Shown here piece by piece: positions 699 through 25,700 of a stretch of DNA of 64,000 bases. Under the pieces are notes generated by a model. The model was not told the origin of the DNA and ran no database searches. It saw only the letters and a program-made list of their open reading frames with translations. A program made the translations under genes and the position numbers. Where the stretch lies: positions 79,372 through 143,371 of the forward strand of contig CAKRTQ010000002.1 in the NCBI GenBank assembly GCA_934402395.1. Direction: 5' to 3'. Numbering within the stretch: the first letter of the stretch is position 1; every line of letters starts with the position of its first letter. This DNA is from an uncultured Eubacteriales bacterium (GTDB lineage Bacteria; Bacillota; Clostridia; Oscillospirales; CAG-272).

Positions 699-781
699 GG
701 TGTCCTCTTATTTTCGAAACTTTTTACTTATTATATCACAAAAAACATCGGTTGTCAAAAAGAAGAGCGCACCTTCCGCGT

Positions 782-2097: not shown

Positions 2098-2133
2098 TAT
2101 TTTATTTTTCCTTTCCTGTGCCTTCCGGCGAAT

Positions 2134-3437: not shown

Positions 3438-3449
3438 TTGTTTTCCGCC

Positions 3450-4802: not shown

Positions 4803-4820
4803 TTTTGTACCTTCCCTTGA

Positions 4821-6245
4821 TTATTTGTTGATAACACCGTCAAGCTCACAAAAACGGCGGTAAGCCGCCGAATAATCCGCGCCGGACGGGGAATACTTCC
4901 CTTTTATTTTCACTGCAGCGCGTGATGCCTCCGCCGCATTTTTGTAAAGCCCTATACCCACGGCGGCAAGCAATGCCGAACCGAGGCACGCGGTCTCCGA
5001 TTCCTCAAGCGTGCAAAGCTCTTTGCCGGTCACATCCGCCTTTATCTGAACCCACAGCCGGCTGGAAGCACCGCCGCCGGTTATGCGGATACCGTCTGCA
5101 TCTATATTCACGTATTCAAGCTCTTCGCGCAGCGTGAAAGCGACCGCCTCCATTATAGCGCGTGCAAAATGCGCCCTTGTGTGCGCAAGGCGGACGCCCG
5201 AAAATTCGGCTCCTACCAACGGATTATACTTCGGCATAGACGATCCGCAGAAATACGGCAGCACGGTAAGCCCGTCACACCCCGGCGCGACCTTTTCGGC
5301 TTCCGCGTCAAGCTCACGGAACGAAAGCTCTTTTGCAAAGTTGTTTCGGAACCACTTGAGTGACATTCCTGCAGTCGCCAACCAGAGAAGCAGGCAGTAC
5401 TTTCCGTCTGTGTGCAGGTGACAAGGAACTATGCTGTCCGTTCTGTACGGCGGGATGCTGTCCGTGACCGCGCACACGGCGAGTGCCGTGCCGGTCATCT
5501 CACTTACCTCACCGGTGTCGGTGACACCAACGCCGACCGCACCTGCGATCTGGTCGAGCGCACCGCACACAACAGATATGCCGTCGTATTTTCCCACCTT
5601 CTCCGCAGTGCGCAGCACACGCGGGAGTTTTTTTTCATCGGCACCGATAAAGTCAAGCATTTCACGCCAGAAACAACGCTCTCTTATATCAAAATAAACC
5701 GAGGACGACTGTATTGTCGGCTCGGTGACAAATTCACCGGTAAGTCTGAAGAGTATAAAGTCTTCAAGAAGGAATATCTTTTCGGTTTTTGCCCACACAT
5801 CGGGGCGGTTATACCTGAACCACAGCAACTTTGATGCGGGCCATGACGCCGTTATCTCGGGCTGTCCCGTGACCTCATAGACCGTTTTTTTGCCGAAGTG
5901 GGCTTCTATCTGCGCCGCCTCGTCCGCAGCACGGTTATCGAGCCATACAACGGCGGGATAAAGCGGTCTCCCCGCTCCGTCGGCAAGTATCAGAGTCTCG
6001 CCCTGAGTATCCACTGCAAGCGCGTGCGGCTTGCCACATTCGCGCGACAGCTCGTCTATTGCCTCGCGGCACATTTCAATGTATTTTTCGGGATCGAATT
6101 CGACATATCCCGTCAATGGGTCGGTGTCGAGCACATAGTCCTTGGTCACAACGCCGAGGCGTTTGCCGCTGCCGTCAAACACGGCAGCCTTGAGTGAGGT
6201 CGTACCTATGTCGATCCCCATAAGTCTGTATTCAACCAAATTCAT
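4821..6245 (-). CDS. FGGY-family carbohydrate kinase (xylulokinase-like)
   Basis: 474 aa. It has the N-terminal GIDIGTTSLKAAVFD phosphate-1 motif and GGGASSRLWVQIKADV near the C-terminus. The start could instead be the internal MGIDIG. Confidence 0.85.
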   Translation of the reverse strand: MNLVEYRLMGIDIGTTSLKAAVFDGSGKRLGVVTKDYVLDTDPLTGYVEFDPEKYIEMCREAIDELSRECGKPHALAVDTQGETLILADGAGRPLYPAVVWLDNRAADEAAQIEAHFGKKTVYEVTGQPEITASWPASKLLWFRYNRPDVWAKTEKIFLLEDFILFRLTGEFVTEPTIQSSSVYFDIRERCFWREMLDFIGADEKKLPRVLRTAEKVGKYDGISVVCGALDQIAGAVGVGVTDTGEVSEMTGTALAVCAVTDSIPPYRTDSIVPCHLHTDGKYCLLLWLATAGMSLKWFRNNFAKELSFRELDAEAEKVAPGCDGLTVLPYFCGSSMPKYNPLVGAEFSGVRLAHTRAHFARAIMEAVAFTLREELEYVNIDADGIRITGGGASSRLWVQIKADVTGKELCTLEESETACLGSALLAAVGIGLYKNAAEASRAAVKIKGKYSPSGADYSAAYRRFCELDGVINK

Positions 6246-6310: not shown

Positions 6311-7324
6311 TTAGTCGGTTACTTTTCTTTTAAGGACGACCGCTGAGGCAGACACCGCAAAAATTACTGCCGCAAGTGCAGCAAAAATGACAATGTTGCC
6401 ATTATCACCGGTACTGGGCGAAGGTGCTTCAGTGCCGGGAGCTTCGGTCACGGGCGCTTCGGTCACAGGTGCCTCGGTTACAGGTGCCTCGGTTACAGGT
6501 GCCTCGGTTACAGGTGCCTCGGTTACAGGTGCCTCGGTTACGACAGAAGCGTCAGGGTTGGTAGCAACGAGCTGGATCGTTCCCTTAAGCGAATTGTTTT
6601 TATAGGAGTTGATATCACTCCACATAAGACCTATATCACGTGTGCTGGAAATACCGGCAATATTGTCATTGACATAAAGGTCAAAACCGATGCAGGTATC
6701 AAAATCCATCTTTATGTCGGCATATCTCTGTGAGAGGTCAAACGCGATCTCGATAAGATAGCCCTTCTCGGTAACCTTGGTGCGGAAGTTCTTGAATGTA
6801 TCGCGGGGAATGTTGTTGAAGTTAGCGGTACCGTCATTCTTTACGTACTCACCGCCGCCGATGGCGCGGCAACTGAGTATGAGCCATAAGGAAGGATCCA
6901 CCTGACCGTTGGTTTCGGAGCGGTCATAGTCCGGGGTGAGCGTGAATCCGAGCGAATTGCGCTGCCAGAGGCTTCCCGCGCCGACGCTGGAAAGCTCCCA
7001 TGCCTCGTCTCCGAGCGTGGAGTCGGTTACTTCGACAAGGAGGTAGAGGTTCTTTTCGTCCCACATTGCGCGGAACTGTGCCTCGGTACCGTTAGTGGGG
7101 TTTTCGGGATCCGGACCATTGGTCGCAAAGGTCTTGGTGAGCTTGTTGATGGGAGCATTGTCCCATACGGCGTCTATCTCGCCGTCGATTTCGGGAGTAC
7201 CGTAGATGGCATAAGCGAGCGGGAAATTCTTATCCGGCTCAGCGGCAGCCGCAGGCAGAAGCGCAGCGGCGCAAAGTGTGGCGGCAAGGAGTGCCGCAAG
7301 GATCAGGGATAACGTTTTTTTCAT
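6311..7324 (-). CDS. Secreted, probably sortase-anchored CBM9-like carbohydrate-binding protein
   Basis: The N-terminus MKKTLSLILAALLAATLCAAALLPAAAA is a signal peptide. EIDGEIDAVWDNAP ... FRAMWDEKNLYLLVEVTD is a CBM9-like signature. A (VTEAP)x7 linker follows. The C-terminus SPSTGDNG plus a hydrophobic stretch plus KRK reads as a cell-wall sorting signal. Confidence 0.75.
   Translation of the reverse strand: MKKTLSLILAALLAATLCAAALLPAAAAEPDKNFPLAYAIYGTPEIDGEIDAVWDNAPINKLTKTFATNGPDPENPTNGTEAQFRAMWDEKNLYLLVEVTDSTLGDEAWELSSVGAGSLWQRNSLGFTLTPDYDRSETNGQVDPSLWLILSCRAIGGGEYVKNDGTANFNNIPRDTFKNFRTKVTEKGYLIEIAFDLSQRYADIKMDFDTCIGFDLYVNDNIAGISSTRDIGLMWSDINSYKNNSLKGTIQLVATNPDASVVTEAPVTEAPVTEAPVTEAPVTEAPVTEAPVTEAPGTEAPSPSTGDNGNIVIFAALAAVIFAVSASAVVLKRKVTD
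6436..6542. repeat. 15-bp tandem repeat (ggtgcctcggttaca-type, about 7 units, the central copies identical)
   Basis: Direct reading of 6436-6542. It encodes VTEAP x7 plus GTEAP in the minus-strand CDS. Confidence 0.95.
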
Positions 7325-7352
7325 GATTTTTGTCGGTTCCTTTCATTGGTTT

Positions 7353-8990
7353 TTATAACTTTACCGTTGGCGGACAGACACAACGGAGAGTTTCGTTATT
7401 GGTGTGGTAGATCGCGCGAAGCTCATTCATGGCTTCAACACAGCGATCCGAACGTGTGGGATCGAAATCGCAACCTATAAGCTCGTGATCGATGACGGCG
7501 CGCAGGTACATCATTCTCCACTTTTTGGTCGTGCGGATATTTTCGGGCAGCCTGCAGTCGTAAGTCGAAAGTGTTTCATAAACGTATTCGATGTCCGAAG
7601 TATCCGATATCGGGAATCGCCACGATTTGCGATCGGTACCGCGCGTAAGTCCCGTTTCGCTTCGCTCGATGGCATCCACAAGCGCAGTATCATCACAGCA
7701 GAACTCAAATTTCGCATATCTGCGCACGGCATCGTGTGAAATAAGCGTCTCGCCGCTGTAATAGGAGAGCATTATGTACTTGTTTATATCCTCAAATATA
7801 CCCTCGGAATAAGGATAACCGCCATTATAAAGATATCCGCTGCCCATATTGGTGCGGTCAAGGAAGCGGCATAGCGGATTGGCTCCGAATCCGCCCCACG
7901 GGCGGCATCCGTGCATGCTTATTTCGGGGAAATCAATGAATTTCACGCCCTTGGGTATTCCGTCGCGCTTTATGCACTCGGGAAGCACGCCGCCGTGGAA
8001 GAAGGACATAATATACTCGAATCCCGTGACCTCACCTGCGGTGAGCTTTTTCCAGAATGCATCCCATTCGCCGGGTACGAAGCGGTCAAAATACCATGTC
8101 GAAAGAATTATCTTAGCGCCGGGCAAAACCTCGTTTGCCAGCTTTACGAACTCCGGCAGTATGCGAAGGTACCCGTTTGCTCCCCACGGAGCACAGTCGG
8201 GGCAGGTGCAGCCTCCCTGATCGTATGGCCAGTAGCACAGATAGTCCGGCTGTACGTCGGCAAACGCCTCGAATACTTCTCTTCTCTCGCGGAGGATCTC
8301 CTCCATGCCGCCGGGCTTTGAGGGGCATATCTCGCGGTTGTATATGCCATCCGGCTTCGTATGATATCCGTTTTCGACAAGGAATGTCGCGCGCAGCTCG
8401 ACGGGCGATGAATCAAAGCCCTCGTTTGAGAGCATGGTCATCGATGCCTTCATGCCTATCTGCTTTGCATATCTCATGAATGCCTTGAGGCGGGTGATAA
8501 GCTCTACTGACTCGGGCTGATCCACCGATCTGAAGTGGTGCATATCGTACCATACGAGCAGCGCGTTACAGCCGCGCAGCGCAAGGTCCTCAATGACCTC
8601 AAAAACCTCCTCTACCGGCGCGTTGTGATAGAAATTGTGGAAATGCGTTGCAAAATACATACCGCGCAGAGGCTTTGCGGGAGTATGATCCACCTTTTTT
8701 GATGAGGGAATGAAGCCGCCATCACCATCGAAGCGCGAATCGACCAGGTAACGTCCGATGGCGGCGTGAAGGGCGCAATCGTTGGCGGCGGTAAAGGCAA
8801 CGGTGTTGCCGTCGGGAACGACAGTGTACCTATCGTTTTCAAATGCTGCATCCACCGCAATAGTAAATGTGTAATCTGCATTGTCTCCGAGACGGCAGCA
8901 ACGCTCGCCGAGCCGACGCTCGAGCGCGTGCGAAAGAATGCCGAAGCTCTCTTTCCCCATTGATATATTTTCAAGTCTGAATGTTGTCAT
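7353..8990 (-). CDS. Putative glycoside hydrolase-like enzyme, family unassigned, paralogue A (CxCxxC motif)
   Basis: The start is trimmed to MTTFRLENI at 8990, which has the SD ggagaaaacaATG. It is collinear with the adjacent paralogue: RGMYFATHF, EICPSKPGGMEEI, YWPYDQGGCTCPDCAPWG, ILSTWYFDR, IDFPEISMHGCRPWGGFGANPL, GGYPYSEG. No signal peptide. Confidence 0.45.
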   Translation of the reverse strand: MTTFRLENISMGKESFGILSHALERRLGERCCRLGDNADYTFTIAVDAAFENDRYTVVPDGNTVAFTAANDCALHAAIGRYLVDSRFDGDGGFIPSSKKVDHTPAKPLRGMYFATHFHNFYHNAPVEEVFEVIEDLALRGCNALLVWYDMHHFRSVDQPESVELITRLKAFMRYAKQIGMKASMTMLSNEGFDSSPVELRATFLVENGYHTKPDGIYNREICPSKPGGMEEILRERREVFEAFADVQPDYLCYWPYDQGGCTCPDCAPWGANGYLRILPEFVKLANEVLPGAKIILSTWYFDRFVPGEWDAFWKKLTAGEVTGFEYIMSFFHGGVLPECIKRDGIPKGVKFIDFPEISMHGCRPWGGFGANPLCRFLDRTNMGSGYLYNGGYPYSEGIFEDINKYIMLSYYSGETLISHDAVRRYAKFEFCCDDTALVDAIERSETGLTRGTDRKSWRFPISDTSDIEYVYETLSTYDCRLPENIRTTKKWRMMYLRAVIDHELIGCDFDPTRSDRCVEAMNELRAIYHTNNETLRCVCPPTVKL

Positions 8991-9006
8991 TGTTTTCTCC
9001 TTATTA

Positions 9007-10677
9007 TCATCTTCCGAGCGGAGGACAGACCGCCGGTTGGATCCTTGTATCATACGCGTGATAAAGCGCCCAGAGTTCCCGGAAACACTTTTGTGCTGTA
9101 ACGGAATTCATCGGAATGAAATCGTGAGTATAAAGCTCGTAGTCGATCACGGCGCGCAGATATATTATCCTCCAGCGCGGATCCTGCTTTGCCGCATCGG
9201 TCATTACCGCGTCAGCCTCGGTGACCAGCCTGTACGCCTCGCGTACCGCCGCCGGGAAATGTGGTGTTACCCTCAGTCTGCCGTCCGGCATTGTCTCTAC
9301 CTTGCGCCCAAGAGTGATCTCAAGCAGTTCAACAGCGCGCAAAAGCGGCTCGGTATCGCTTATTCCGAAATAAAAACGCACATAATCTCTTACCACATCT
9401 GCGGTATCCGCATGTGTACCGCTGTAATGCGACATGCAGCAGAATTCGTTTATGTTTTCCCAGAAGCCCTCGGAATACGGGAAACCACCGTCAAGAACAT
9501 CGCCGACCGATGAAAAAAAGTTATCGAGCCTCATTGTAAGCGGGTTCGCACCATATCCGCCCCACGGCTTGCCGCCCGACATACTGATCTCGGGGAAATC
9601 TATCACCGGACGTCCGCCGGGAGCTCCGTGTTCTGCAGTAAGCGGCATGAACTGACCGTCACCGTACACCGCCATGACGTATTCCGCCCACGGATATTTT
9701 CCCGATGATATCTTTTCGTAAAGGCGCTTTCCCTCATCGCGGAGATGCCTGTCGAAATGCCATGTCGAAAGTATCAGCTTTGCATCGGGGAAATATTCGG
9801 AAAGCAGCGGCTTTACCGATTCCTCGTACACCTTGATAAAACCGTTCTCACTCCAACGTGAGCATACATCGCAGGTGCAGCCGCCCTCGTCATACGCCCA
9901 ATATGCAAAATACTTTACCGGAACATCCGAAAAAAGTTCAAAAAATTCGCGGTGACAACGGCGTATCTCCTCCATGCCGCCCGGAAGGTTCGGACATATC
10001 TCTTTGTGAAGCTCGGCATAATTTGCGGTTATATACTCGCCTCGCATATCCCACGGTGCCGCTATATCCTCGGAACGGTCAAGAAACCCGGTATTTGAAA
10101 ATAGTATCAGTGCGGGAGCTATCCCAAACTCTGCGGCACAGGCGAATATCTTCTTGAGCCTGTCTGCCATTTCAATCGCCTCGGGAGATTTGAACGATCT
10201 GTAATGCTGAGGAGCAAGGCAGAGCATGAGGGTATTGCACCCCCAAAGCGCCAGATCCTCAATAAACGGCGTTACATCCTCCATCGGCGCGACATGCCAA
10301 AAGTTGTAGAAATGAGACGCAAGGTACATACCGCGCACCGAGCTTTTCTGCTCATGCTCTATCGGCAGCGCCGGAGGCACAAAGCCACCGCGAAAGTCAA
10401 AGCTTCCGCTCATAAAGAAACGTCCGAGCGCCGCATATACGGTGCAGAGGTCGCTTGCGGTGACGAGAACGCCGCCTTTTCCGTCTTCAATGATCGAATA
10501 GCGATCCTTTTTGTTTTCGGCTTCACTGACTTCATGCGGAACGATGTCAAGTGTAACGGAATACCCGCCGTCACAGAGAGCACACCCACGATGTTCAAGT
10601 ATACGTCCGACAGTCTTTTTTATGCGCGCAATATCCTTTTCCGGGATATTAGCGCTCTTCAGAGTAAGAGTAAACAT
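9007..10677 (-). CDS. Putative glycoside hydrolase-like enzyme, family unassigned, paralogue B (CxCxxC motif)
   Basis: The start is trimmed to MFTLTLK at 10677, which has the SD gaggtaaaaATG. It shares the conserved blocks of 7353..8990: YWAYDEGGCTCDVCSRWS, ILSTWHFDR, IDFPEISMSGGKPWGGYGANPL, GGFPYSEG. No signal peptide. Confidence 0.45.
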   Translation of the reverse strand: MFTLTLKSANIPEKDIARIKKTVGRILEHRGCALCDGGYSVTLDIVPHEVSEAENKKDRYSIIEDGKGGVLVTASDLCTVYAALGRFFMSGSFDFRGGFVPPALPIEHEQKSSVRGMYLASHFYNFWHVAPMEDVTPFIEDLALWGCNTLMLCLAPQHYRSFKSPEAIEMADRLKKIFACAAEFGIAPALILFSNTGFLDRSEDIAAPWDMRGEYITANYAELHKEICPNLPGGMEEIRRCHREFFELFSDVPVKYFAYWAYDEGGCTCDVCSRWSENGFIKVYEESVKPLLSEYFPDAKLILSTWHFDRHLRDEGKRLYEKISSGKYPWAEYVMAVYGDGQFMPLTAEHGAPGGRPVIDFPEISMSGGKPWGGYGANPLTMRLDNFFSSVGDVLDGGFPYSEGFWENINEFCCMSHYSGTHADTADVVRDYVRFYFGISDTEPLLRAVELLEITLGRKVETMPDGRLRVTPHFPAAVREAYRLVTEADAVMTDAAKQDPRWRIIYLRAVIDYELYTHDFIPMNSVTAQKCFRELWALYHAYDTRIQPAVCPPLGR

Positions 10678-10684
10678 TTTTACC

Positions 10685-11929
10685 TCACAGCCCCCTATCT
10701 GCTTCGTTATCAAGCACACGCGACGTGCCTGGGATATACGGAATATCTAATTCGGTTATCCGGTTTGCGGCATTGAGTATCTCCTTTACGTGCAACTCGT
10801 TTGCAAGATGCGCGTTCGCTTTGTCTCCAAGATAAACGGTAAGCGCCTCATCGGATGTAGTGTATGTGGCAACCTCGGGATCGATGGCGGTATACACCTC
10901 CACGGTCCCGCCCTTTCCGCCGTGATGCGCCGTCTGGCAGAAGTCCGACTTCAGATACGAGCCGTACATCGCAGTAAGGATATCATTTTCGGCAATGCAA
11001 GCATCGGCGAGGAACATCATGCTGTATCCTACCATGCGGATGCGGAAGACCACAGACGTATTGTTCCAGTCGCGTGTATCTTTCCATGAGCGAAAGGACG
11101 TGCGGAAATCCTCATGAGTTGCAAGGAATTCTATCTCCGCGCCGCCTATATGCCGCACCTCTCCCGTGTGTATTTTTGTGACCTTTCCCTCACGGTTGAA
11201 GGCGCGAAAATTCGCTATTGAGCGCTGACGCAGAAAATATTCGTTTTTTTCGAACCAGTCGATGCAGTCACGCTCGCCGGGATAGTTGCATATCAGCTCG
11301 TCTATTCGCACCTCGGGGCAGTCGTAATATTTCTCGGTGAACTTTATCAGCCCTCCGGTATGATCATTGTGCGTATGGCTGATGATCCACGCCGCTATAA
11401 CTATATTCTCCGGGTCCGGCGCCTGCTTTTTCAGCACATTCATTATACCGTCCGCAAATGCGTCGTTTGCCACTCCGCCGTCGATAACGATGAACCTACC
11501 GTCCTCAAGCCGCAGAATGTAGCACATAAGCCCGCAGTTTACGGGAACACCGCGGAAATAGTTGTTCTGCATGAACGTTCTGCCGATCTGAGTGAGCAGC
11601 GGCGCGCATATTTTTTCACCGCAGACGTCGGACGCGGAATCGCTCATATTCTCCGCCGGCTCGACGATAACGCGGAAGGTCGAATTGAACGGCGTGTAAT
11701 ATGAAGTGACTCCGTAAGCGCCGCTCCGGTATACCGCAAACAGATTCCCCGCCGCCGCGCGTCCGCCGACCTGCGCAAAGCCCTCGCCGGTAAGTCGCCG
11801 GCACCAGCCGCGCCATTCGTCAGCCGATGAATTTTCTTTTATTATCTGATAAGCCCCGTCGCCGTCGGCGTGTGCAAACGCGCCGGACGGCAATTCGGGT
11901 ATTACCGACAGTATTTTATCTTGTACCAT
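10685..11929 (-). CDS. MBL-fold metallo-hydrolase, cytoplasmic paralogue
   Basis: 414 aa. The HxHxDH motif is IISHTHNDHTGG, and there is a late AHHGG. The SD gaggtcataaacATG precedes the start. No signal peptide. Confidence 0.75.
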   Translation of the reverse strand: MVQDKILSVIPELPSGAFAHADGDGAYQIIKENSSADEWRGWCRRLTGEGFAQVGGRAAAGNLFAVYRSGAYGVTSYYTPFNSTFRVIVEPAENMSDSASDVCGEKICAPLLTQIGRTFMQNNYFRGVPVNCGLMCYILRLEDGRFIVIDGGVANDAFADGIMNVLKKQAPDPENIVIAAWIISHTHNDHTGGLIKFTEKYYDCPEVRIDELICNYPGERDCIDWFEKNEYFLRQRSIANFRAFNREGKVTKIHTGEVRHIGGAEIEFLATHEDFRTSFRSWKDTRDWNNTSVVFRIRMVGYSMMFLADACIAENDILTAMYGSYLKSDFCQTAHHGGKGGTVEVYTAIDPEVATYTTSDEALTVYLGDKANAHLANELHVKEILNAANRITELDIPYIPGTSRVLDNEADRGL

Positions 11930-11974
11930 GTTTATGACCTCAGCTTTTGCCCCGCAAAAGCATCCTTCCTCGTA

Positions 11975-13732
11975 TCAGGGAAAGACGTTTCCCTTGTCGG
12001 TGACGATACAGCTTCCGGGTGTATAAGGAAGCGGGAATTCCGTTATCCGGTTCGCGCTGTTTACAGCCTCCTTCAGGTGGAGATCCGCAATAAGATGCGC
12101 GTTGTGAGCATCCTTTTTATAAAGTTCAAACGCCTCATCGGATGTGGTGAACAGCGCTACCTCCGGATCTATCATGTCGTAGACCTCTGACGTACCGCCC
12201 TCCCCTCCGTGATGCGCCACCTGGCAGATATCGGACTTGAGCAGGTTGCCCCACATCCTCACGGCAATGCCGTTTGAATCCACCTGTGAATCGCCGAGGA
12301 ACATTATCTTTTCTCCGGCAACCGTCACTCGGAATATCATTGATGTGTTGTTCCAGTATTTTGTGTCGGAAAGCGTCCGTTTGTCTGTATAATAGTCCTC
12401 CTGGGTATAGAAAAACTCAAGCGCGGCGCCGCCGATATTGCGCGTCTCGCCGGTGTGGATTTTTGTAAACTTCGCATTCGGATAGTACAGCTTCAGATTG
12501 TTGACTGTGCTTTTGCGATTGTTCAGCTCGCCGTCAGCCTCGCACACATCGTTTGACGGGAAATTGCAGATAAGCTCGTCAAGCGTGACCTGTCTTCCCC
12601 ATATCTCGCTGAATTTGTTGAAACCGCCCGTGTGGTCATTATGCGTGTGCGTTATCACCCACGCGGCGATCCTTATGTTCTGCGGGTCGGGTGCCTGCGT
12701 GCGCAGCGTTTTCATTATACCGTCGGCAAAGCCGGAAGTGGCAACGCCGCCGTCTATGACAATGAAACTGCCGTCCTCAAGGCGTATAACAAAGCACATG
12801 AGTCCGCTGTTTACCGGAACGCCGCGGAAGGTGTTGCTGACCGAAAAGGTGCGGCTAATCATTGTCAGACGAGCGTCGCACATCTTATTTACGGATGTGC
12901 CGTCCGACTCGCGGTCGCTCATATTGGAATCCGGCTCCGCGATAATGCGGATCGTATTGTTGAACGCGGTGAAATACGCGGTAAGTCCCACGCCGTCCTT
13001 GCGGTACTGGGCGAAGTGATTACCGTTTTCTTCCCTTGTGAAGGTACGCTCAAAGCCAAGACCGTCCAGCTTACCGAGATATGCACTGTATGAATCGACA
13101 GAACTTTTTACGATCACAGCCTGATACGCCTTATCCCCCGCCGCATAGAACGCCGGGACCGCGCCGTCATATACCGGCATCGCATCAAGCATTTCGCTGA
13201 CGCTCCCGCTTATGTCAAGCGTCTCCGGAAGCTCGCCGCCCGCGGAGATAAGTTCCTTCATGCGCTGTACGGCGGTCGCAGTCGCCGTATCGCTCCACCC
13301 GAACACGACTATCTTGTGTCCTACGGTCTTTATCGCGTAGCCGCCGTACGGCGTTGCCCCGGCGACCTCCTCGGATTCGGGGTATGCAGTCTTTCCCACG
13401 AGGATATCAAATGAATCCGAGGAATATCCCTCGCCGGGCATGAGAAAGTCGGTCGTAAATGTGACCTCCCCGCCCGATGCAGCCTTGAGCGCCGCGGTTA
13501 TCTCTTTGGCGGCTTCGGACACGTTATCGGCGCACACATCCGGTCTTATGACCCGGTAATTGACGCCATCCTGCCCCCACAGCGCCGGGAATGCGACTGT
13601 GGTAGTCTCCGCCGCCGTGGTGGAGGTACCGCTGTCTTCCCCGCCGCTGCCGTTCGTGCACGCCGCAAGCAGAAGAACGACTGCCAGCAGCGCCGCACAC
13701 AGAAGATGCTTCAAATTCTTTGTTTGTATCAT
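11975..13732 (-). CDS. MBL-fold metallo-hydrolase lipoprotein, extracellular paralogue
   Basis: 585 aa. Signal peptide with lipobox LLLAAC. The HxHxDH motif is VITHTHNDHTGG, followed by VAHHGGEGG. The C-terminal roughly 400 aa are collinear with 10685..11929. Confidence 0.75.
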   Translation of the reverse strand: MIQTKNLKHLLCAALLAVVLLLAACTNGSGGEDSGTSTTAAETTTVAFPALWGQDGVNYRVIRPDVCADNVSEAAKEITAALKAASGGEVTFTTDFLMPGEGYSSDSFDILVGKTAYPESEEVAGATPYGGYAIKTVGHKIVVFGWSDTATATAVQRMKELISAGGELPETLDISGSVSEMLDAMPVYDGAVPAFYAAGDKAYQAVIVKSSVDSYSAYLGKLDGLGFERTFTREENGNHFAQYRKDGVGLTAYFTAFNNTIRIIAEPDSNMSDRESDGTSVNKMCDARLTMISRTFSVSNTFRGVPVNSGLMCFVIRLEDGSFIVIDGGVATSGFADGIMKTLRTQAPDPQNIRIAAWVITHTHNDHTGGFNKFSEIWGRQVTLDELICNFPSNDVCEADGELNNRKSTVNNLKLYYPNAKFTKIHTGETRNIGGAALEFFYTQEDYYTDKRTLSDTKYWNNTSMIFRVTVAGEKIMFLGDSQVDSNGIAVRMWGNLLKSDICQVAHHGGEGGTSEVYDMIDPEVALFTTSDEAFELYKKDAHNAHLIADLHLKEAVNSANRITEFPLPYTPGSCIVTDKGNVFP

Positions 13733-13742
13733 TGCAATATGA

Positions 13743-15227
13743 TCAGCTCTTCATGCCGGATATCGCGGCATCTATATCGGCAATAAATCTCTTTTTGTAA
13801 ACGTCAAAGGATGTCTTTATGCTTGTGCTCTGGCTCGTATGGAGGTTATGGAGCAGATTGATACAGTTACCGAAGTTATTTGCAAGGGCTATGTCAAGCT
13901 GACCTTTCTCAAAGACCATATCTATCATCTTTATATCGGTCGGGTTATTGGAGCACTTATAATGAAGGATATTACCTACAAGGTTTGTAACGAGCTTGCC
14001 CTCGGTGGCTGCGTAGATAGTCTCAAGGATAAGTCCGATATTCTCGGGATCGGGCGCGGTGGACGGTATGGTCATTCCCTCAACATAGCTGTAAACGGGA
14101 GCAACATAATCCTCCTGGTCGGCATTGTACTTGGGAACTATCACAAGACCGTACTCAAAGTCAAGATCGCGAACTGACTGAACAGAGTATGATGCGGTCG
14201 CCTGAAAAAGCGCGCGTCCTTCGTTGAATACAGCAGCATAGTTGTCGGCGGCAGCTCCGGATGAGAAACCTGCGTATCTGCTTGCTGGACTGCCTGCTAT
14301 CGCCGCGCACGGCTCCGAAACGAACTTGTTCATAAAATCGGTAAAGACATCAATGTACCGTTCGCTGAGACCGTCGTAGACCGGATATCCGTCGGCATCG
14401 TTGTGAGTCAGCGTCTCGCCTGAACTTATCATGAGATTACGTATATGGTTAACGTGTCCCGTAAAGCCGAGCACATCCTCGGAAACATCATAAAATCCGT
14501 CGTTGTTGTAGTCTCTTGCCGCCGCCTTCATCATGGTATACATTTTTTCGTAGGTCCATGTTCCGGCGTCAACACAGTCATAAGGGCTTTCAAGCCCGTT
14601 ATCGGTCACAAGTCCTTTATTGAACGCAAGAATATAAAAGCCGCAGTAATAATTAAGGTGTCCCTGACCGAAAACAACATAGCGCTTGCTTCCTATGTTT
14701 ACACTGTCGTTTATGCTGGATGCCCACCATGGATTATCAAGATTAATAGTATCTATCGAAGCTATATCGAGCACCTCGCCGCGCAGATACGACTGGAGCG
14801 CAGTGCCTGTCGGTAGCTGGCAGATATCATACAAATGCGTTTGTGTGCTGACAGCTGTCGATATCTCCTTTGATATGTTCTGCGAATTGATCTCTGTCAT
14901 TACTATATTGAGTCTCTCGCTTACAAGCCGCTGACGGTTGTAAACGATCTCATCAAGCAGATTGCCGCTCGTCTCTTCCAGTGCCATCGTGTCATAAGAC
15001 CATGTGGTAGGTCTGGTGAGTATGCGGAATTCATATTTGTCAAAGTCCGCAACCGGCAGGGCTTCATAAGCTGCGGTAGTCTCCGCCACCTTCGTAGTCA
15101 TATCACCTGAGACGGTTGTTGCAGGGGTATTTCCGCCGTTATCCTTTACACACGCAGCCATCAGTACAAGACCGACTGCAACAAGCACAAGACAAAGCGC
15201 ACGGCTGATAATGGATGTTCTCTTCAT
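13743..15227 (-). CDS. ABC-type extracellular solute-binding lipoprotein (orphan, no adjacent permease)
   Basis: 494 aa. Signal peptide with lipobox VLMAAC. Clearly homologous to the SBP-like lipoprotein at 33246..34748 (for example the NPWWAS/KPWWSE and GTWTYEKM/GEWTYDKF blocks). Confidence 0.6.
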   Translation of the reverse strand: MKRTSIISRALCLVLVAVGLVLMAACVKDNGGNTPATTVSGDMTTKVAETTAAYEALPVADFDKYEFRILTRPTTWSYDTMALEETSGNLLDEIVYNRQRLVSERLNIVMTEINSQNISKEISTAVSTQTHLYDICQLPTGTALQSYLRGEVLDIASIDTINLDNPWWASSINDSVNIGSKRYVVFGQGHLNYYCGFYILAFNKGLVTDNGLESPYDCVDAGTWTYEKMYTMMKAAARDYNNDGFYDVSEDVLGFTGHVNHIRNLMISSGETLTHNDADGYPVYDGLSERYIDVFTDFMNKFVSEPCAAIAGSPASRYAGFSSGAAADNYAAVFNEGRALFQATASYSVQSVRDLDFEYGLVIVPKYNADQEDYVAPVYSYVEGMTIPSTAPDPENIGLILETIYAATEGKLVTNLVGNILHYKCSNNPTDIKMIDMVFEKGQLDIALANNFGNCINLLHNLHTSQSTSIKTSFDVYKKRFIADIDAAISGMKS

Positions 15228-15516
15228 TTCCGTTTAGTTTTCCTCCTTAGGATCGCGGTCCGGCACACTCGCTTAAGTCAATAAGTTTCGAAAATATTTC
15301 ATCTCGCGAAGCACCATGTACCATTTCACACATAATAATATCACACTGCACACCACTTGTCAAGCATATTTATCAATTTTCACGGATATTTTTTCGAATC
15401 ACGCTTAGTTTCCTCAAAATAATTTTCGAAAAACATCTCAAAGCTATTGACATTCGCGCATGATTGTGATAAAGTAATAAAAAGCAATTCCATACCGAAA
15501 GGTCAAACATTTCAGA

Positions 15517-16932: not shown

Positions 16933-16940
16933 AAGCCGCA

Positions 16941-16977
16941 GCGGCTGAGCCCCAAGACTCAGCCGCCGCATTTTTTT
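16941..16977. terminator. Bidirectional intrinsic terminator between convergent genes
   Basis: gcggctgag / ctcagccgc 9-bp stem followed by cgcattttttt. Confidence 0.7.
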
Positions 16978-22908: not shown

Positions 22909-22928
22909 ACGTAAGGCTTATATTTTAT

Positions 22929-22960
22929 GCACATCCGATCCCGGGTGCGTTTTTTGTTTG
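22929..22960 (+). terminator. Leader terminator 1
   Basis: gcacatccg atcc cgggtgc (7 bp with a 2-nt bulge) followed by gttttttgtttg. Confidence 0.5.
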
Positions 22961-22995
22961 TCCGAACGTTTTTCGCGGCAAGCATGCTTCCTTAT

Positions 22996-23022
22996 GCACC
23001 CGTCGGGGTGCTTTTTGTTTTT
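22996..23022 (+). terminator. Leader terminator 2
   Basis: gcaccc gtcg gggtgc (6-bp GC stem, tetraloop) followed by tttttgttttt. Its sequence is related to terminator 1 (ttatgcac..ccg..). Confidence 0.6.
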
Positions 23023-25699: not shown

Positions 25700-25700
25700 A

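What the first reader, a model, noticed from the sequence alone, without database searches (positions are those of the whole stretch)
6311..15227. Tightly packed six-gene operon with no characterised counterpart that I recognise
On the minus strand, six genes are separated by only 10, 45, 7, 16 and 28 nt. In order they are:
- an SBP-like lipoprotein (13743..15227)
- an MBL-fold lipoprotein (11975..13732)
- a cytoplasmic MBL-fold paralogue (10685..11929)
- two cytoplasmic paralogues of a GH-like protein with a conserved CxCxxC motif (9007..10677 and 7353..8990)
- a cell-wall-anchored CBM9-like protein (6311..7324)

The locus carries no permease, ABC ATPase or regulator. Two of the enzyme types are duplicated. 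The products split cleanly into surface-exposed proteins (SBP, MBL lipoprotein, CBM9 protein) and cytoplasmic ones.

The layout resembles a Gram-positive polysaccharide-utilisation locus, but MBL-fold enzymes are not standard glycan-degrading components. MBL-fold type III alkylsulfatases and phosphodiesterases are established families. My inference is that the locus captures and processes a sulfated or phosphodiester-decorated glycan.
Basis: partly seen in the sequence, partly recalled or inferred. Interest (0 to 1): 0.7.

Follow-up and report, generated by a model that had tools for sequence, protein, structure and literature searches.

The report
Gut Clostridia glycan locus, unclassified enzymes
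The six genes are real and form the front half of a larger sugar-polymer-degrading gene set in an uncultured gut bacterium; its central enzymes belong to a large, widespread glycosidase-like family that matches no family in the libraries searched, which makes it a good target for enzyme discovery.

Summary
All six minus-strand genes exist at the stated coordinates with the stated spacing, folds and localisation signals. The unit is drawn too small. It continues without a canonical terminator into six sugar-catabolism genes (FGGY kinase, FucI/AraA-like isomerase, TIM, SIS isomerase, YjbQ, FSA/transaldolase) and a LacI regulator. A neutral-ceramidase-like gene is transcribed divergently from the shared promoter region.

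A 14-bp palindrome (AAGTTTCGAAACTT) marks these promoter regions. It recurs in related loci whose proteins are only 30-55% identical, which defines a conserved regulon.

The two "GH-like" paralogues belong to an unclassified family: 1,004 clusters at 50% identity, 485 species genomes, many phyla, no Pfam, NCBIfam or PDB sequence match. Their fold resembles GH20/GH84/GH89, they have a GH42-like Cys4 site, and some members are fused to GH3 or GH43.

The MBL paralogues are structurally closest to the teichoic-acid phosphorylcholine esterase Pce and to ComEC.

The locus joins three separable modules: SBP-like plus MBL, X, and the ceramidase-like gene plus catabolic cassette. The substrate remains unidentified; fusions and neighbours point to pentose-rich plant glycans. 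Verdict: a real, conserved, uncharacterised locus and a new variant of a Gram-positive glycan-utilisation locus.

The parts
13743..15227 (-). SBP-like lipoprotein (494 aa), a distant family-1 sugar-binding protein; first gene of the operon
   Evidence: ORF. The lipobox Cys26 is invariant. The family profile hits the arabino-oligosaccharide SBP 6rjy (E 2e-4) and MalE proteins. It is a paralogue of the SBP_bac_1 protein at 33246-34748 (E 1e-22). It sits next to an MBL gene in L008, L012, L013, L016, L020, L023, L035 and L044, and SBP-like genes occur in the distant MBL loci L092 and L094.
11975..13732 (-). Surface MBL-fold di-metal hydrolase lipoprotein (585 aa): lipobox, linker, GH20b-like N-domain, small alpha/beta domain, MBL domain
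   Evidence: Pfam Lactamase_B and Lactamase_B_2. H362, D366, H367, D481, H507 and H508 are invariant; H364 and H426 are at least 90% conserved. Model pLDDT is 91.1. Foldseek: Pce 2bib 6e-13, ComEC domain 9ic4 (TM 0.77 on the target), arylsulfatase 8gyg 2e-9; a ~110-165-residue stretch, taken from the domain order to be the N-terminal domain, matches GH20 enzymes 4h04 and 8pxt.
10685..11929 (-). Cytoplasmic MBL paralogue (414 aa), lacking the signal peptide and the GH20b-like domain
   Evidence: 53% identical to residues 196-579 of the lipoprotein. Pfam Lactamase_B 32.7 bits. The metal motifs H185xH187xD189H190, H254, D309 and H335H336 are invariant.
9007..10677 (-). X1: cytoplasmic GH-like protein, subtype with YDEGGCTC and SNTG motifs (556 aa)
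   Evidence: 38% identical to X2. No Pfam or NCBIfam family. Motifs. In the loci examined an X1-type copy lies beside an X2-type copy, except on the short contig L021.
7353..8990 (-). X2: cytoplasmic GH-like protein, majority subtype with YDQGGCTC and SNEG motifs (545 aa)
   Evidence: At least 1,423 homologues, none with a Pfam domain. 485 species genomes. 1,004 clusters at 50% identity. Model pLDDT 94.8. Foldseek to GH20, GH84, GH89, GH138 and GH115 at 9-14% identity. Invariant C222, D257, C261, C263, C266, E356 and E396.
6311..7324 (-). Surface CBM9-domain protein with signal peptide, (VTEAP)n linker and a sortase-like C-terminal anchor (SPSTGD, hydrophobic segment, KRK)
   Evidence: Pfam CBM9_1 67.9 bits; Gram_pos_anchor 16.6 bits, below its cutoff of 20. 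15-bp x 6.5 tandem repeat at 6444-6541. The xPxTGD anchor is conserved in homologues.
4821..6245 (-). FGGY sugar kinase, nearest to xylulokinase (same strand, 65-nt gap after the CBM9 gene)
   Evidence: Pfam FGGY_N and FGGY_C. TIGR01312 XylB 304.7 bits, below its 380 cutoff. No canonical terminator in the gap. Syntenic in L001-L007 and L012.
3450..4802 (-). FucI/AraA-superfamily aldose-ketose isomerase (450 aa)
   Evidence: Weak AraA_central and Fucose_iso_C hits. Full-length but weak match to SftI, 39.9 bits against a 700 cutoff. 75-80% identical across many Clostridia MAGs. FucI-like genes lie next to X in L048 (Phycisphaerae) and L049 (Chloroflexota).
2733..3437 (-). Archaeal-type triose-phosphate isomerase homologue
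   Evidence: Pfam TIM. NF003302 206.7 bits, above its cutoff of 132.
2134..2757 (-). Single-SIS-domain sugar-phosphate isomerase (KpsF/GutQ-like)
   Evidence: Pfam SIS. TIGR00393 kpsF E 5e-31; HxlB E 1e-16.
1465..2097 (-). YjbQ/UPF0047 protein
   Evidence: Pfam UPF0047. 89-93% identical in the stand-alone cassettes L089 and L090.
782..1468 (-). FSA/TalC-type class I aldolase or transaldolase
   Evidence: Pfam TAL_FSA. TIGR00875 206 bits, below its cutoff of 246.
1..698 (-). LacI-family regulator (N-terminal ~232 codons; cut by the window edge)
   Evidence: Frame translation MATLKDIAALAGVNVSTVSKALRG.... The full 339-aa LacI gene sits at the same place in L001-L004. It has its own 12/12 promoter-like site at 758-730.
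15517..16932 (+). CER: cytoplasmic homologue of the neutral-ceramidase catalytic domain (471 aa), divergently transcribed from the shared promoter/operator region
   Evidence: PF04734 25.9 bits, below its cutoff. The family profile hits neutral ceramidases 2zws (3.9e-12) and 4wgk. Invariant H97, H99, E401, Y431 and Y443. It co-occurs with X and/or the cassette in L008, L012, L013, L020, L035, L042, L043, L047, L053, L067, L069, L089 and L090.
15335..15363 (-). Promoter-like site for the SBP operon (TTGACA-17-TATTAT with an extended -10 TG)
   Evidence: 11 of 12 matches. An AAGGAGGA ribosome-binding site precedes the ATG at 15227.
15286..15293 (.). Operator-like palindrome core TTTCGAAA (AAGTTTCGAAAATA) in the 5' leader of the SBP operon
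   Evidence: Three of the four window matches fall in about 370 nt of promoter DNA (Poisson P about 4e-7).
15424..15431 (.). Second operator-like palindrome core, between the divergent promoters; a degenerate third copy lies at about 15393
   Evidence: Sites are conserved in L001, L003, L006, L012, L020, L023, L035, L008, L043 and L047.
712..719 (.). Operator-like palindrome core between the LacI promoter and the LacI start codon (suggests autoregulation)

Best explanation
What it is. The six genes are the capture-and-depolymerisation half of a LacI-controlled regulon of at least 13 genes. The regulon lets an uncultured, spore-forming gut Clostridia bacterium (closest to MAGs labelled 'uncultured Anaerotruncus sp.') use a decorated, probably pentose-rich glycan.

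Proposed course of events:
1. The sortase-anchored CBM9 protein and the SBP-like lipoprotein hold the polymer or its fragments at the cell surface.
2. The surface MBL-fold di-metal hydrolase removes or cleaves an ester-type substituent or bridge, most likely a phosphodiester by analogy with Pce and ComEC.
3. Oligosaccharides enter through an ABC permease encoded elsewhere, using the orphan SBP.
4. In the cytoplasm the MBL paralogue repeats the de-esterification.
5. The two X paralogues hydrolyse glycosidic bonds. X is a new glycosidase-like family: a GH20b-like N-domain, a (beta/alpha)8 barrel and a helical bundle. A probably structural Cys4 metal site lies next to the beta4 catalytic position, and an invariant Glu sits on beta7.
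6. The released monosaccharide is processed by the ceramidase-like hydrolase CER (role unknown). The FucI-like isomerase converts it to a ketose. The xylulokinase-like FGGY kinase phosphorylates it. The SIS isomerase, FSA/transaldolase and TIM pass it into central metabolism.
7. LacI binds the AAGTTTCGAAACTT operators and releases them when an intermediate accumulates.

Shown here: the genes, folds, paralogy, localisation signals, synteny, operator conservation, family size, and the fusions and neighbours.

Inferred: every catalytic activity, the substrate, the import route and the effector.
For: Gene set and continuity:
- Twelve co-directional genes plus LacI, with no canonical terminator at the 65-nt gap between the CBM9 and kinase genes.
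- Identical 13-gene synteny in relatives about 90% identical.

Conservation at 30-55% protein identity:
- The SBP-like gene, MBL, LacI, X, CBM9 and CER recur in L008, L012, L013, L016, L020, L023/L087 and L035.
- The cassette lies next to X in L007, L012, L042 and L043. A FucI-like gene lies next to X in Phycisphaerae and Chloroflexota.

Regulon:
- The palindromic operator is concentrated in the two promoter regions (P about 4e-7) and conserved in ten related loci.

X as a carbohydrate-active enzyme:
- A confident model (pLDDT 94.8) matches GH20, GH84, GH89, GH138 and GH115.
- Family members are fused to GH3, GH43, lectin-like and CBM-like domains.
- Neighbours include GH39, GH106, sugar ABC permeases and LacI.
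- The Cys222...Cys261-x-Cys263-x-x-Cys266 layout and the beta4/beta7 acidic positions parallel the GH42 Zn(Cys)4 site, acid/base and nucleophile described in PMC8573354.

MBL:
- The di-metal motif is intact.
- Profile hits to ComEC (9e-9) and Pce/CbpE (3e-6).
- Foldseek ranks Pce and ComEC first.
- Phosphomonoesterase-type genes lie beside X or MBL relatives: Y_phosphatase3 next to X in L042, Metallophos in L092, alkaline phosphatase in L094.

SBP-like fold.
Against: - No activity was measured, and every sequence comes from MAGs or metagenomes.
- No permease is encoded within 64 kb, so the import step is assumed.
- The MBL-X association is not general. MBL is found in 19 of 76 X loci, and three distant MBL loci have no X within 10 kb. 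Most X loci outside Bacillota share none of the window's other genes.
- The CER-plus-cassette module occurs without X, MBL or SBP (L089, L090). It may therefore serve a different small-molecule substrate and be joined here only by regulation.
- An MBL-fold arylsulfatase is also a significant structural match.
- The fusion and neighbour families (GH3, GH43, GH39, GH106) point to plant glycans, which are not known to carry phosphodiesters (my own knowledge).
- X2-type proteins have Gln where GH20 and GH42 have the catalytic Glu, so simple hydrolysis by the textbook mechanism is not assured.
- dbCAN/CAZy could not be consulted.
Confidence: 0.5

Rival explanations
1. This is an ordinary hemicellulose or pectin side-chain locus (arabinoxylan, arabinan or arabinogalactan). 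X is a new pentosidase or alpha-glucuronidase-like enzyme. The isomerase and kinase are a non-orthologous xylose or arabinose route. The MBL proteins remove a non-phosphate substituent (a carboxyl ester or similar), so no phosphodiester or sulfate is involved.
For: - CBM9 domain.
- The best SBP structural relative by sequence is an arabino-oligosaccharide binder.
- The kinase is nearest to XylB.
- X is fused to GH3 and GH43.
- X neighbours include GH39, GH106, Alpha-L-AF_C-like, GDSL esterases and a rhamnogalacturonase-like protein.
- GH115 is among the Foldseek matches.
- MBL relatives lie near GH78 and GH106.
Against: - The nearest MBL relatives are phosphodiesterases, not carboxylesterases.
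- The kinase and isomerase both score below the equivalog cutoffs for XylB and AraA.
- No AraD, XylA or uronate-catabolism genes are in the locus.
- The roles of CER, SIS and YjbQ are unexplained.
Confidence: 0.2
2. The target is a sulfated glycan. The MBL paralogues are MBL-fold sulfatases that desulfate the polymer outside the cell and the oligosaccharides inside it, before X cleaves them.
For: The MBL-fold arylsulfatase 8gyg is the fifth Foldseek match (E 2.4e-9, TM 0.54 on the target). The organism lives in the gut, where sulfated mucin and glycosaminoglycans are available (Hadza gut metagenome contigs; the rest is my own knowledge).
Against: - No alkylsulfatase dimerisation or SCP2-like domains.
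- The sulfatase match is weaker and has a high rmsd (8.1 A) compared with Pce and ComEC (4.4-4.6 A).
- No sequence-profile hit to a sulfatase.
- No formylglycine sulfatases or known mucin or GAG CAZymes in the locus.
- Neighbouring families elsewhere are plant-type.
Confidence: 0.1
3. The function is cell-envelope maintenance, not nutrition. The surface MBL remodels the cell's own teichoic-acid-like or wall polysaccharide, as Pce does in pneumococci. The cytoplasmic enzymes recycle the released fragments.
For: Pce/CbpE is the top structural and a top profile match. The products are surface-anchored. The NTP_transferase plus APH pair near a distant MBL (L092) resembles cell-wall sugar salvage genes (my own knowledge).
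Against: - LacI control, an SBP and a full catabolic cassette feeding glycolysis are typical of nutrient use.
- X is fused to or neighbours GH3, GH43, GH39 and GH106.
- No choline-binding repeats.
- The X family is present in diderm phyla and in an archaeal MAG, which lack teichoic acids (last point my own knowledge).
Confidence: 0.08
4. The adjacency is fortuitous. The six genes are unrelated neighbours that merely share a strand.
For: The modules occur separately elsewhere: X alone, MBL with the SBP-like gene but without X, and the cassette without X.
Against: - The SBP-like, MBL, LacI, X and CBM9 genes, often with CER, recur in at least seven species-level loci at 30-55% identity.
- A shared operator is conserved across them.
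- Intergenic gaps are 7-45 nt.
Confidence: 0.03

Closest known systems
GH20, GH84 and GH89 glycoside hydrolases (e.g. S. pneumoniae GH20C 5a6j, S. gordonii GcnA 2epk, human NAGLU 4xwh)
   Same: Same three-part architecture for X: an N-terminal GH20b-like alpha/beta domain, a (beta/alpha)8 barrel and a C-terminal helical bundle. Foldseek E down to 2e-15, TM 0.55-0.64. Four of 40 members each give faint Glyco_hydro_20b and NAGLU_N hits. There is an RG motif on beta1 and an acidic residue at the end of beta4. X1-type copies carry D-E there, as GH20 does.
   Different: Only 9-14% identity. No Pfam, NCBIfam or PDB sequence match, even with a profile. The majority (X2-type) have D-Q instead of D-E. 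X has a Cys4 site and an invariant beta7 Glu, which I do not recall in GH20 or GH84 (my own knowledge). X is not a member of these families by sequence.
GH42 beta-galactosidase Zn(Cys)4 site (Bacillus circulans 3TTS; Gal42 in PMC8573354)
   Same: One remote Cys followed about 40 residues later by CxCxxC, immediately after the beta4 catalytic position, with a Glu on beta7. GH42 has C113, C153/155/158, N147-E148 and E305. X has C222, C261/263/266, D257-(Q/E)258 and E356.
   Different: No detectable sequence similarity to Glyco_hydro_42. GH42 is not among the top Foldseek hits. GH42 lacks the GH20b-like N-domain (my own knowledge). Per PMC8573354, the Cys cluster is not conserved in all GH42 enzymes, whereas it is nearly invariant in X. 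The geometry in the X model could not be measured because no coordinates were available.
Pce/CbpE teichoic-acid phosphorylcholine esterase (2bib, 1wra) and the ComEC beta-lactamase-like domain (9ic4, 9vc6)
   Same: MBL domain with a complete di-metal motif. These are the best profile hits (9e-9 and 3e-6) and the best structural hits (6e-13; TM 0.63-0.77 on the target). Pce is likewise a surface enzyme that acts on a substituent of a sugar polymer.
   Different: 13-15% identity. No choline-binding repeats and no ComEC membrane domains. The window proteins add a GH20b-like domain and a second alpha/beta domain, occur as a surface and cytoplasmic pair, and sit beside an SBP-like gene under LacI control.
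Gram-positive polysaccharide-utilisation loci (regulator, ABC-transporter SBP and glycoside hydrolases in Firmicutes)
   Same: A LacI regulator with its operator, an SBP lipoprotein, a surface CBM protein, cytoplasmic glycosidase-like enzymes and a downstream monosaccharide catabolic cassette.
   Different: No permease or ATPase genes nearby. The central enzymes matched no family in Pfam, NCBIfam or PDB. MBL-fold hydrolases and a ceramidase-like enzyme are not standard components (my own knowledge; nothing was found in the literature searches).
Sulfo-SFT (sulfofructose transaldolase) pathway of gut Firmicutes (SftI isomerase plus SftT transaldolase; PMC11968277)
   Same: A short FucI-like isomerase (about 450 aa) paired with a transaldolase/FSA-family enzyme in one operon. 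The window isomerase aligns over its full length to the SftI model.
   Different: 39.9 bits against a cutoff of 700. No GH31 sulfoquinovosidase, SftX (DUF4867), SLA reductase or exporter. The window cassette adds a kinase, TIM, SIS and YjbQ.
Neutral ceramidase (P. aeruginosa 2zws, human 4wgk), for the divergent CER gene
   Same: Homologous catalytic domain (profile E 3.9e-12). The HxH motif (H97, H99) and the Glu and Tyr residues aligned to the ceramidase C-terminal active-site region are conserved.
   Different: Cytoplasmic and about 470 aa, against 646-688 aa for the ceramidases. Only about 250 N-terminal residues align with confidence. Below the Pfam cutoff. Always found with sugar-catabolic genes, never with lipid genes.

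Membership tests
Metallo-beta-lactamase superfamily (both MBL genes) | HxHxDH motif plus downstream His, Asp and His metal ligands; Pfam Lactamase_B above its cutoff | tested here: met
   PF00753 scores 29 and 32.7 bits against a cutoff of 22.7. In A3, MBLc positions H185, H187, D189, H190, H254, D309, H335 and H336 are invariant. In A5, MBLs positions H362, D366, H367, D481, H507 and H508 are invariant and H364 and H426 are at least 90% conserved.
Type III alkylsulfatase (SdsA1/Pisa1-like) | MBL domain followed by the alkylsulfatase dimerisation and SCP2-like C-terminal domains | tested here: not met
   A Pfam scan at E<=0.1 lists only Lactamase_B and Lactamase_B_2 (plus a below-threshold New_glue hit). 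No sulfatase model appears in NCBIfam. No sulfatase appears in the profile search against PDB.
MBL-fold arylsulfatase (as in 8gyg) | Close structural and sequence similarity to characterised MBL arylsulfatases; sulfate-ester hydrolysis | tested here: inconclusive
   Foldseek rank 5: E 2.4e-9, TM 0.54 on the target, rmsd 8.1 A, 12% identity. No sequence-level hit. Activity is not testable here.
Pce/CbpE phosphorylcholine esterase | Pce-type MBL catalytic module | tested here: met
   Profile E 2.7e-6 to 1.8e-5 over about 175 residues. Foldseek top hit: E 6e-13, rmsd 4.5 A. This is similarity at the fold and superfamily level, at 14-15% identity.
Pce/CbpE phosphorylcholine esterase | C-terminal choline-binding repeats and phosphorylcholine esterase activity | tested here: not met
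   No choline-binding repeat domain in the Pfam scan. Activity is not testable with these tools.
ComEC/Rec2 | Polytopic competence membrane domain with an OB-fold or DUF4131 domain preceding the MBL domain | tested here: not met
   Only the C-terminal MBL part of the ComEC models matches: TIGR00361 positions 486-633 of 663, 35 bits against a 190 cutoff. The proteins are a lipoprotein and a soluble protein.
GH20 (for X1 and X2) | Sequence match to the Glyco_hydro_20 catalytic domain | tested here: not met
   No Pfam hit for X1 or X2. Among 40 family members only faint Glyco_hydro_20b hits appear (4 members, best E 0.022). A profile search of PDB sequences finds nothing.
GH20 (for X1 and X2) | Catalytic Asp-Glu pair at the end of beta4 | tested here: inconclusive
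   X1-type copies have D-E (12 of 99). X2-type copies have D-Q (84 of 99). The strand assignment comes from the model's secondary structure, not from a structural superposition.
GH42 | Glyco_hydro_42 domain | tested here: not met
   No Pfam hit, even at E<=10, across 40 members.
GH42 | Zn(Cys)4 cluster C...CxCxxC adjacent to the beta4 catalytic residue | tested here: met
   The motif and its spacing match the layout described in PMC8573354. This is a resemblance of a feature, not family membership. Metal identity was not tested.
ABC-transporter family-1 solute-binding protein (for 13743-15227) | SBP_bac_1 fold or sequence | tested here: inconclusive
   No direct Pfam hit. TIGR03850 E 7e-4. A family profile reaches 6rjy at E 2e-4. 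It is homologous (E 1e-22) to a window protein that passes SBP_bac_1.
ABC-transporter family-1 solute-binding protein (for 13743-15227) | Encoded next to its BPD_transp_1 permease genes | tested here: not met
   No BPD_transp_1 gene in the 36 window proteins scanned, nor beside the SBP-like gene in L087. In L043 and L067, permeases accompany a different SBP_bac_1 protein next to X.
CBM9 | CBM9_1 domain above the gathering score | tested here: met
   67.9 bits against a cutoff of 23.4, covering residues 46-253 over the whole model.
Sortase-anchored surface protein | LPXTG-type motif, hydrophobic segment and basic tail at the C-terminus | tested here: inconclusive
   Gram_pos_anchor scores 16.6 bits, below its cutoff of 20. 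The SPSTGD, hydrophobic and KRK elements are present and conserved as xPxTGD in homologues. The motif fits the clostridial (S/P)PXTG type (my own knowledge).
Neutral ceramidase (for CER, 15517-16932) | Ceramidase catalytic domain with its Zn ligands, plus the C-terminal tail domain | tested here: inconclusive
   Profile E 3.9e-12 to 2zws; the HxH motif is conserved. The second aligned region is weak. Pfam is below its cutoff. At 471 aa against 646-688 aa, the protein is too short to contain the tail domain.
Sulfo-SFT pathway | SftI-equivalog isomerase with SftT, a sulfoquinovosidase and an SLA reductase or dehydrogenase | tested here: not met
   SftI model scores 39.9 bits against a cutoff of 700. 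No GH31, DUF4867 or reductase genes are in the locus.

The most novel reading that the evidence does not exclude
The X proteins found a new, phylum-spanning glycoside-hydrolase (or glycoside-phosphorylase-like) family. A Cys4 metal site sits at the catalytic strand. In most members a Gln replaces the usual acid/base Glu, which would suit substrates with a good leaving group such as glycosyl-1-phosphates. The GH20b-domain MBL proteins would then be the first MBL-fold enzymes dedicated to glycan breakdown, cutting phosphodiester bridges. The regulon as a whole would degrade a phosphodiester-linked glycan not yet recognised as a gut nutrient, for example a teichoic-acid-like wall polymer, a phosphomannan, or plant or fungal glycosyl-inositol-phosphoceramide head groups. 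It would feed the released sugar through a previously undescribed route from the ceramidase-like enzyme through isomerase, kinase and SIS isomerase to FSA.
Probability: 0.15. Interest if true: 0.8.

Novelty: new variant of a known kind. Interest (0 to 1): 0.6.

Why it matters
Gut Clostridia (Oscillospiraceae-type) are abundant but poorly cultured, and their glycan-degrading systems are much less well understood than Bacteroides PULs.

This locus offers three concrete targets:
- **The X family.** It is glycosidase-like and large: 1,004 clusters at 50% identity, in 485 species genomes from Clostridia to Planctomycetota, Chloroflexota, Verrucomicrobiota and an Asgard MAG. It has a confident fold model but no Pfam, NCBIfam or PDB family. 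Assigning its activity would annotate thousands of "hypothetical proteins" at once.
- **The MBL pair.** One copy is on the surface and one in the cytoplasm, and both are related to teichoic-acid and DNA phosphodiesterases. This suggests a de-esterification step in glycan use that current CAZyme annotation would miss.
- **The cassette.** The ceramidase-like gene, isomerase, kinase, TIM, SIS isomerase, YjbQ and FSA/transaldolase form a very highly conserved set. It probably represents an undescribed sugar catabolic route and could give YjbQ/UPF0047 a physiological role.

The conserved LacI operator gives a direct experimental handle for finding the inducer, and through it the substrate.

Tried and rejected
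**Direct family assignment of X.** Nothing was found in Pfam, NCBIfam, phmmer against PDB, or a 40-sequence profile against PDB.

**Literature.** Searches for the X family, for MBL enzymes in glycan loci, for the YjbQ/isomerase/FGGY/transaldolase cassette and for GIPC degradation by gut bacteria found no relevant characterisation.

**Sulfo-transaldolase pathway.** Considered because of the SftI match. Rejected on score and on missing partner genes.

**Type III alkylsulfatase.** Rejected because the accessory domains are absent.

**Riboswitch or leader RNA upstream of the operon.** No Rfam family in 1-23000.

**A canonical terminator between the CBM9 and kinase genes.** None found. There is only a GGGGCTG...CAGCCCC hairpin without a T-run.

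**Homology between the N-terminal domains of X and the surface MBL.** hhalign aligns the expected regions, but at 3% probability. Only fold-level support remains.

**Geometry of the Cys4 site, and the E190/E258 swap in 3D.** Could not be measured, because model coordinates are not exposed to scripts.

**A recurrent neighbour of X outside Bacillota.** Apart from FucI-like and FGGY genes in a few loci, clustering the neighbouring ORFs gave mostly antisense shadow ORFs and lineage-specific synteny.

**The GH39-linker-SBP-like fusion in L084 as a Rosetta-stone link.** It has no signal peptide and may be an assembly or frameshift artefact, so it carries little weight.

Full report
**Observation**

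The six minus-strand ORFs exist at the stated coordinates. The gaps are 10, 45, 7, 16 and 28 nt when X1 and X2 start at the ATGs 10677 and 8990. These starts give the 556- and 545-aa products that gene callers report in close relatives.

Pfam confirms the MBL fold for both middle genes and a CBM9_1 domain for the last (67.9 bits). The two MBL proteins are 53% identical over 389 residues. The cytoplasmic copy lacks the first ~195 residues of the lipoprotein. X1 and X2 are 38% identical end to end.

Lipoboxes (LMAAC, LLAAC) are visible in the sequence, and the Cys is conserved in homologues. The CBM9 protein has:
- a signal peptide;
- a (VTEAP)n linker encoded by a 15-bp tandem repeat;
- a C-terminal SPSTGD motif, a hydrophobic segment and a KRK tail. 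Homologues conserve the motif as xPxTGD.

**True extent of the unit**

The same strand continues after a 65-nt gap, which has no canonical terminator. The following genes are:
- a xylulokinase-like FGGY kinase;
- a FucI/AraA-superfamily isomerase;
- an archaeal-type TIM;
- a KpsF-like single-SIS isomerase;
- YjbQ;
- an FSA/TalC-type aldolase.

A LacI-family gene follows at 698..1. It has its own perfect promoter-like site and is cut by the window edge.

Upstream, a 289-nt region holds a strong promoter-like site for the SBP gene (TTGACA-17-TATTAT). It separates the operon from a divergently transcribed gene, CER. A family profile shows that CER is a homologue of the neutral-ceramidase catalytic domain (2zws, E 3.9e-12).

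Relatives from human gut metagenomes with about 90% identical proteins carry all of these genes in the same order. The best genome matches are MAGs labelled "Clostridia bacterium HGM12681" and "uncultured Anaerotruncus sp.".

**Regulon**

The palindromic core TTTCGAAA occurs four times in the window. Two copies lie in the SBP/CER promoter region and one between the LacI promoter and the LacI start codon. Three hits in about 370 nt gives a Poisson P of about 4e-7.

The extended palindrome AAGTTTCGAAACTT, or close variants of it, lies in the corresponding promoter regions of L012, L020, L023, L035, L008, L043 and L047. The proteins in those loci are only 30-55% identical to the window's. In L012, L035, L020 and L008 a LacI gene sits between the SBP-like gene and X.

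This is the strongest evidence that the surface genes, X, CER and the regulator work together. The statement that the locus has "no regulator" is incorrect.

**The X family**

Sequence-based classification failed:
- X2 has at least 1,423 homologues at 90% clustering. Every name that a source gives is "hypothetical protein", and none has a Pfam domain.
- An exhaustive profile search finds 1,004 clusters at 50% identity, 336 of them at E<=1e-30.
- Relatives are encoded in 485 species-representative genomes. These span Clostridia, Chloroflexota, Planctomycetota, Verrucomicrobiota, Lentisphaerota, Armatimonadota, Acidobacteriota and one Asgard MAG.
- Neither single-sequence nor profile searches reach any Pfam, NCBIfam or PDB sequence.

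Structure prediction succeeded. The AlphaFold model is very confident (pLDDT 94.8, pTM 0.95). It shows an N-terminal alpha/beta domain, a (beta/alpha)8 barrel and a helical bundle. Foldseek matches GH20, GH84, GH89, GH138 and GH115 enzymes at E down to 2e-15, but with only 9-14% identity.

Nearly invariant motifs run from Clostridia to the Asgard MAG:
- RG on beta1;
- ExC222P;
- WPYD257(Q/E)GGC261xC263xxC266xPWG after beta4;
- FPE356ISM after beta7;
- PYSE396GxxE400DxN after beta8.

One remote Cys plus CxCxxC immediately after the beta4 catalytic position, with a Glu on beta7, reproduces the layout of GH42 beta-galactosidases. In GH42 the residues are C113, C153/155/158, N147-E148 and E305, and the Zn is reported to be structural (PMC8573354).

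I therefore infer a glycosidase with a beta4/beta7 catalytic layout and a structural metal site.

One observed detail concerns the two subtypes. X1-type copies have SNTG with YDEGGC. X2-type copies have SNEG with YDQGGC. This reciprocal swap suggests that the acid/base carboxylate has moved between neighbouring strands, or that the two paralogues use different chemistry. I could not test this in 3D.

**Context of X**

Multidomain family members are fused to:
- GH3 plus Fn3;
- GH43;
- ConA-like lectin domains (three proteins);
- Big_5 plus an HpiC1-like domain;
- an S9 alpha/beta-hydrolase.

Neighbours of X in other genomes include:
- GH39-like enzymes (L084, L047, L053, L042);
- GH106 (L086, L047);
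- GDSL esterases;
- LacI regulators;
- in L043 and L067, two BPD_transp_1 permeases plus an SBP_bac_1 protein directly upstream.

FucI-like isomerase genes, sometimes with FGGY kinase genes, lie next to X not only in Bacillota. They also do so in a Phycisphaerae MAG (L048) and a Chloroflexota MAG (L049).

Together these data make X a cytoplasmic carbohydrate-active enzyme. Its product probably enters the isomerase/kinase route. The partner families lean towards pentose- and rhamnose-containing plant glycans.

**The MBL proteins**

This family is small in the word-indexed search (45 hits), and the named members are Clostridia or Eubacteriales MAG proteins. The di-metal motif is intact.

A family profile hits ComEC (9e-9) and the teichoic-acid phosphorylcholine esterase Pce/CbpE (2.7e-6, over about 175 residues).

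For the lipoprotein model (pLDDT 91.1), Foldseek ranks:
1. Pce first (2bib, 6e-13);
2. then the ComEC beta-lactamase-like domain (TM 0.77 on the target);
3. an MBL-fold arylsulfatase fifth (8gyg, rmsd 8.1 A).

A stretch of about 110-165 residues also matches GH20 enzymes (4h04, 8pxt). From the domain order of the model I take this to be the N-terminal domain, which would make it GH20b-like. Sequence-level homology between this domain and X's N-domain is not significant.

No alkylsulfatase accessory domains are present.

From the MBL side, three distant homologues (27-32% identity) again lie beside SBP-like genes, tandem MBL copies, or both. Their neighbours include a Metallophos phosphoesterase (L092), an alkaline phosphatase (L094), and GH78 with GH106 (L093). 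None has X within 10 kb. In L042 a Y_phosphatase3 gene follows X.

A phosphodiesterase acting on a sugar-polymer substituent is thus the best-supported guess. It remains an inference.

**SBP-like protein and transport**

A 14-sequence profile reaches sugar SBP structures, with 6rjy (an arabino-oligosaccharide binder) best at E 2e-4. A second orphan SBP at 33246-34748 is a full-length paralogue (E 1e-22) and passes SBP_bac_1.

No BPD_transp_1 permease was found among the 36 window ORFs scanned. Import must therefore use a transporter encoded elsewhere, or the protein acts mainly as a surface binding partner of the MBL enzyme.

**Modularity**

The window joins three modules that occur separately elsewhere:
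- **SBP-like plus MBL:** found without X in L092 and L094.
- **X:** found without any of the other window genes in most non-Bacillota loci.
- **CER plus ISO, FGGY, TIM, SIS, YjbQ and TAL:** found without X, MBL or SBP in L089 and L090. There YjbQ is 89-93% identical to the window's copy, TIM 82-84% and ISO 76-78%.

Across the 76 species-level X loci L008-L083, neighbours within 7 kb were as follows:

| Neighbour | Loci (of 76) |
|---|---|
| MBL | 19 |
| SBP-like | 13 |
| LacI | 11 |
| CER | 10 |
| FGGY | 8 |
| FucI-like | 7 |
| CBM9 | 6 |

These are lower bounds, because many contigs are short.

**Which sugar?**

The sugar is not resolved.
- The kinase is nearest to XylB but below the equivalog cutoff.
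- The isomerase belongs to the FucI/AraA/SftI superfamily without matching any equivalog.
- The SIS protein is closest to arabinose-5-phosphate isomerase.

FSA/transaldolase enzymes handle ketoses with a D-threo (3S,4R) configuration, such as D-xylulose, D-fructose and sedoheptulose (established knowledge). A D-xylulose-type ketose is therefore a reasonable inference.

The sulfo-transaldolase pathway is an analogy only.

**Verdict**

The finding is real, and it is more conserved and larger than described.
- The "phosphodiester" option is favoured over "sulfate".
- The operon boundaries and the "no regulator" statement are wrong.

**Limits**
- No dbCAN/CAZy check was possible.
- No coordinates were available for geometric tests.
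- All sequences come from MAGs or metagenomes.
- There are no expression or biochemical data.

Noticed in passing
window 782-6245 and 15517-16932; L089:7230-15417; L090:8458-15455: The ceramidase-like gene together with the isomerase, kinase, TIM, SIS, YjbQ and FSA/TAL genes forms a stand-alone cassette in other Clostridia MAGs, with no X, MBL or SBP nearby. It is unusually conserved: YjbQ 89-93%, TIM 82-84% and isomerase 76-78% identical, while CER is only 31-33% identical. It is probably an undescribed catabolic route and a possible physiological context for YjbQ/UPF0047.
   Followed up: partly
window 33246-34748 (+): A second orphan ~500-aa SBP_bac_1 lipoprotein, a full-length paralogue (23% identity, E 1e-22) of the finding's SBP-like protein. 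It also has no adjacent permease genes. An SBP_bac_5 gene lies just upstream at 31008-32873.
   Followed up: partly
L084:3158-5836: An 892-aa ORF next to an X homologue joins a GH39-like domain, a Thr-rich linker and an SBP-like domain. The SBP-like part aligns with the window SBP from just after its lipobox. The ORF has no signal peptide, so it is either a real fusion or an assembly or frameshift artefact.
   Followed up: partly
window 6311-6420, and CBM9 homologues in L006, L008, L011, L012, L020, L023 and L035: CBM9 homologues end in one of two C-terminal signals. One is xPxTGD with a hydrophobic segment and a basic tail (sortase-like). The other is GGCG/GCKSS with a hydrophobic segment and a basic tail. 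The second may be a different, undescribed sorting signal.
   Followed up: partly
window 9007-10677 compared with 7353-8990, and 99 homologues: There is a reciprocal residue swap between the X subtypes. X1-type has SNTG with YDEGGC, and X2-type has SNEG with YDQGGC. This suggests a relocated catalytic carboxylate or divergent chemistry. In the loci examined an X1-type copy lies beside an X2-type copy, except on the short contig L021.
   Followed up: partly
window 16934-16970: A strong bidirectional terminator-like hairpin (15 pairs, 10 of them G-C) lies between the convergent CER gene and the GH36 alpha-galactosidase gene (16982-19192). The GH36/MatE/EamA genes upstream are therefore a separate transcription unit.
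   Followed up: partly
window 49255-51713 (-): A glycerophosphodiester phosphodiesterase (GDPD) gene lies directly downstream of an MFS transporter gene, about 35 kb from the locus. It is another phosphodiester-related pair in the same genome region.
   Followed up: no
window 38647-40215 (+) and 46818-48713 (+): Two further poorly characterised glycosidase-like genes are present: a GHL10 (PF02638) protein, and a GtaA_6_Hairpin/DUF4964/DUF5127 protein.
   Followed up: no
L077:10001-11431 (Promethearchaeota MAG, 3.7-Mb scaffold): An X homologue (41% identity) with a CCC variant of the motif (GGCCCPRC) lies inside a much longer stop-free reading frame (7493-11446) in an Asgard archaeon MAG. This could be lateral transfer or binning contamination.
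   Followed up: no
P0262 (535 aa): A protein 55% identical to about half of the surface MBL lipoprotein also carries a CBM9_1 domain. It may be an MBL-CBM9 fusion or a chimeric gene call.
   Followed up: no
window 22927-28070: An ABC_ATPase (PF09818)/MRB1590_C protein, an HTH_3 protein and an HTH plus Peptidase_S24 (LexA or phage-repressor-like) protein lie between the sugar locus and a germination protease gene (29757-30725). The germination protease marks the organism as a spore-former.
   Followed up: no
L094:5853-11881 and L092:9995-14461: Distant members of the MBL family occur as two or three tandem paralogues of ~627-811 aa. They lie beside an alkaline phosphatase (L094) or a Metallophos phosphoesterase with GFO/IDH, NTP_transferase and APH genes (L092).
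   Followed up: partly
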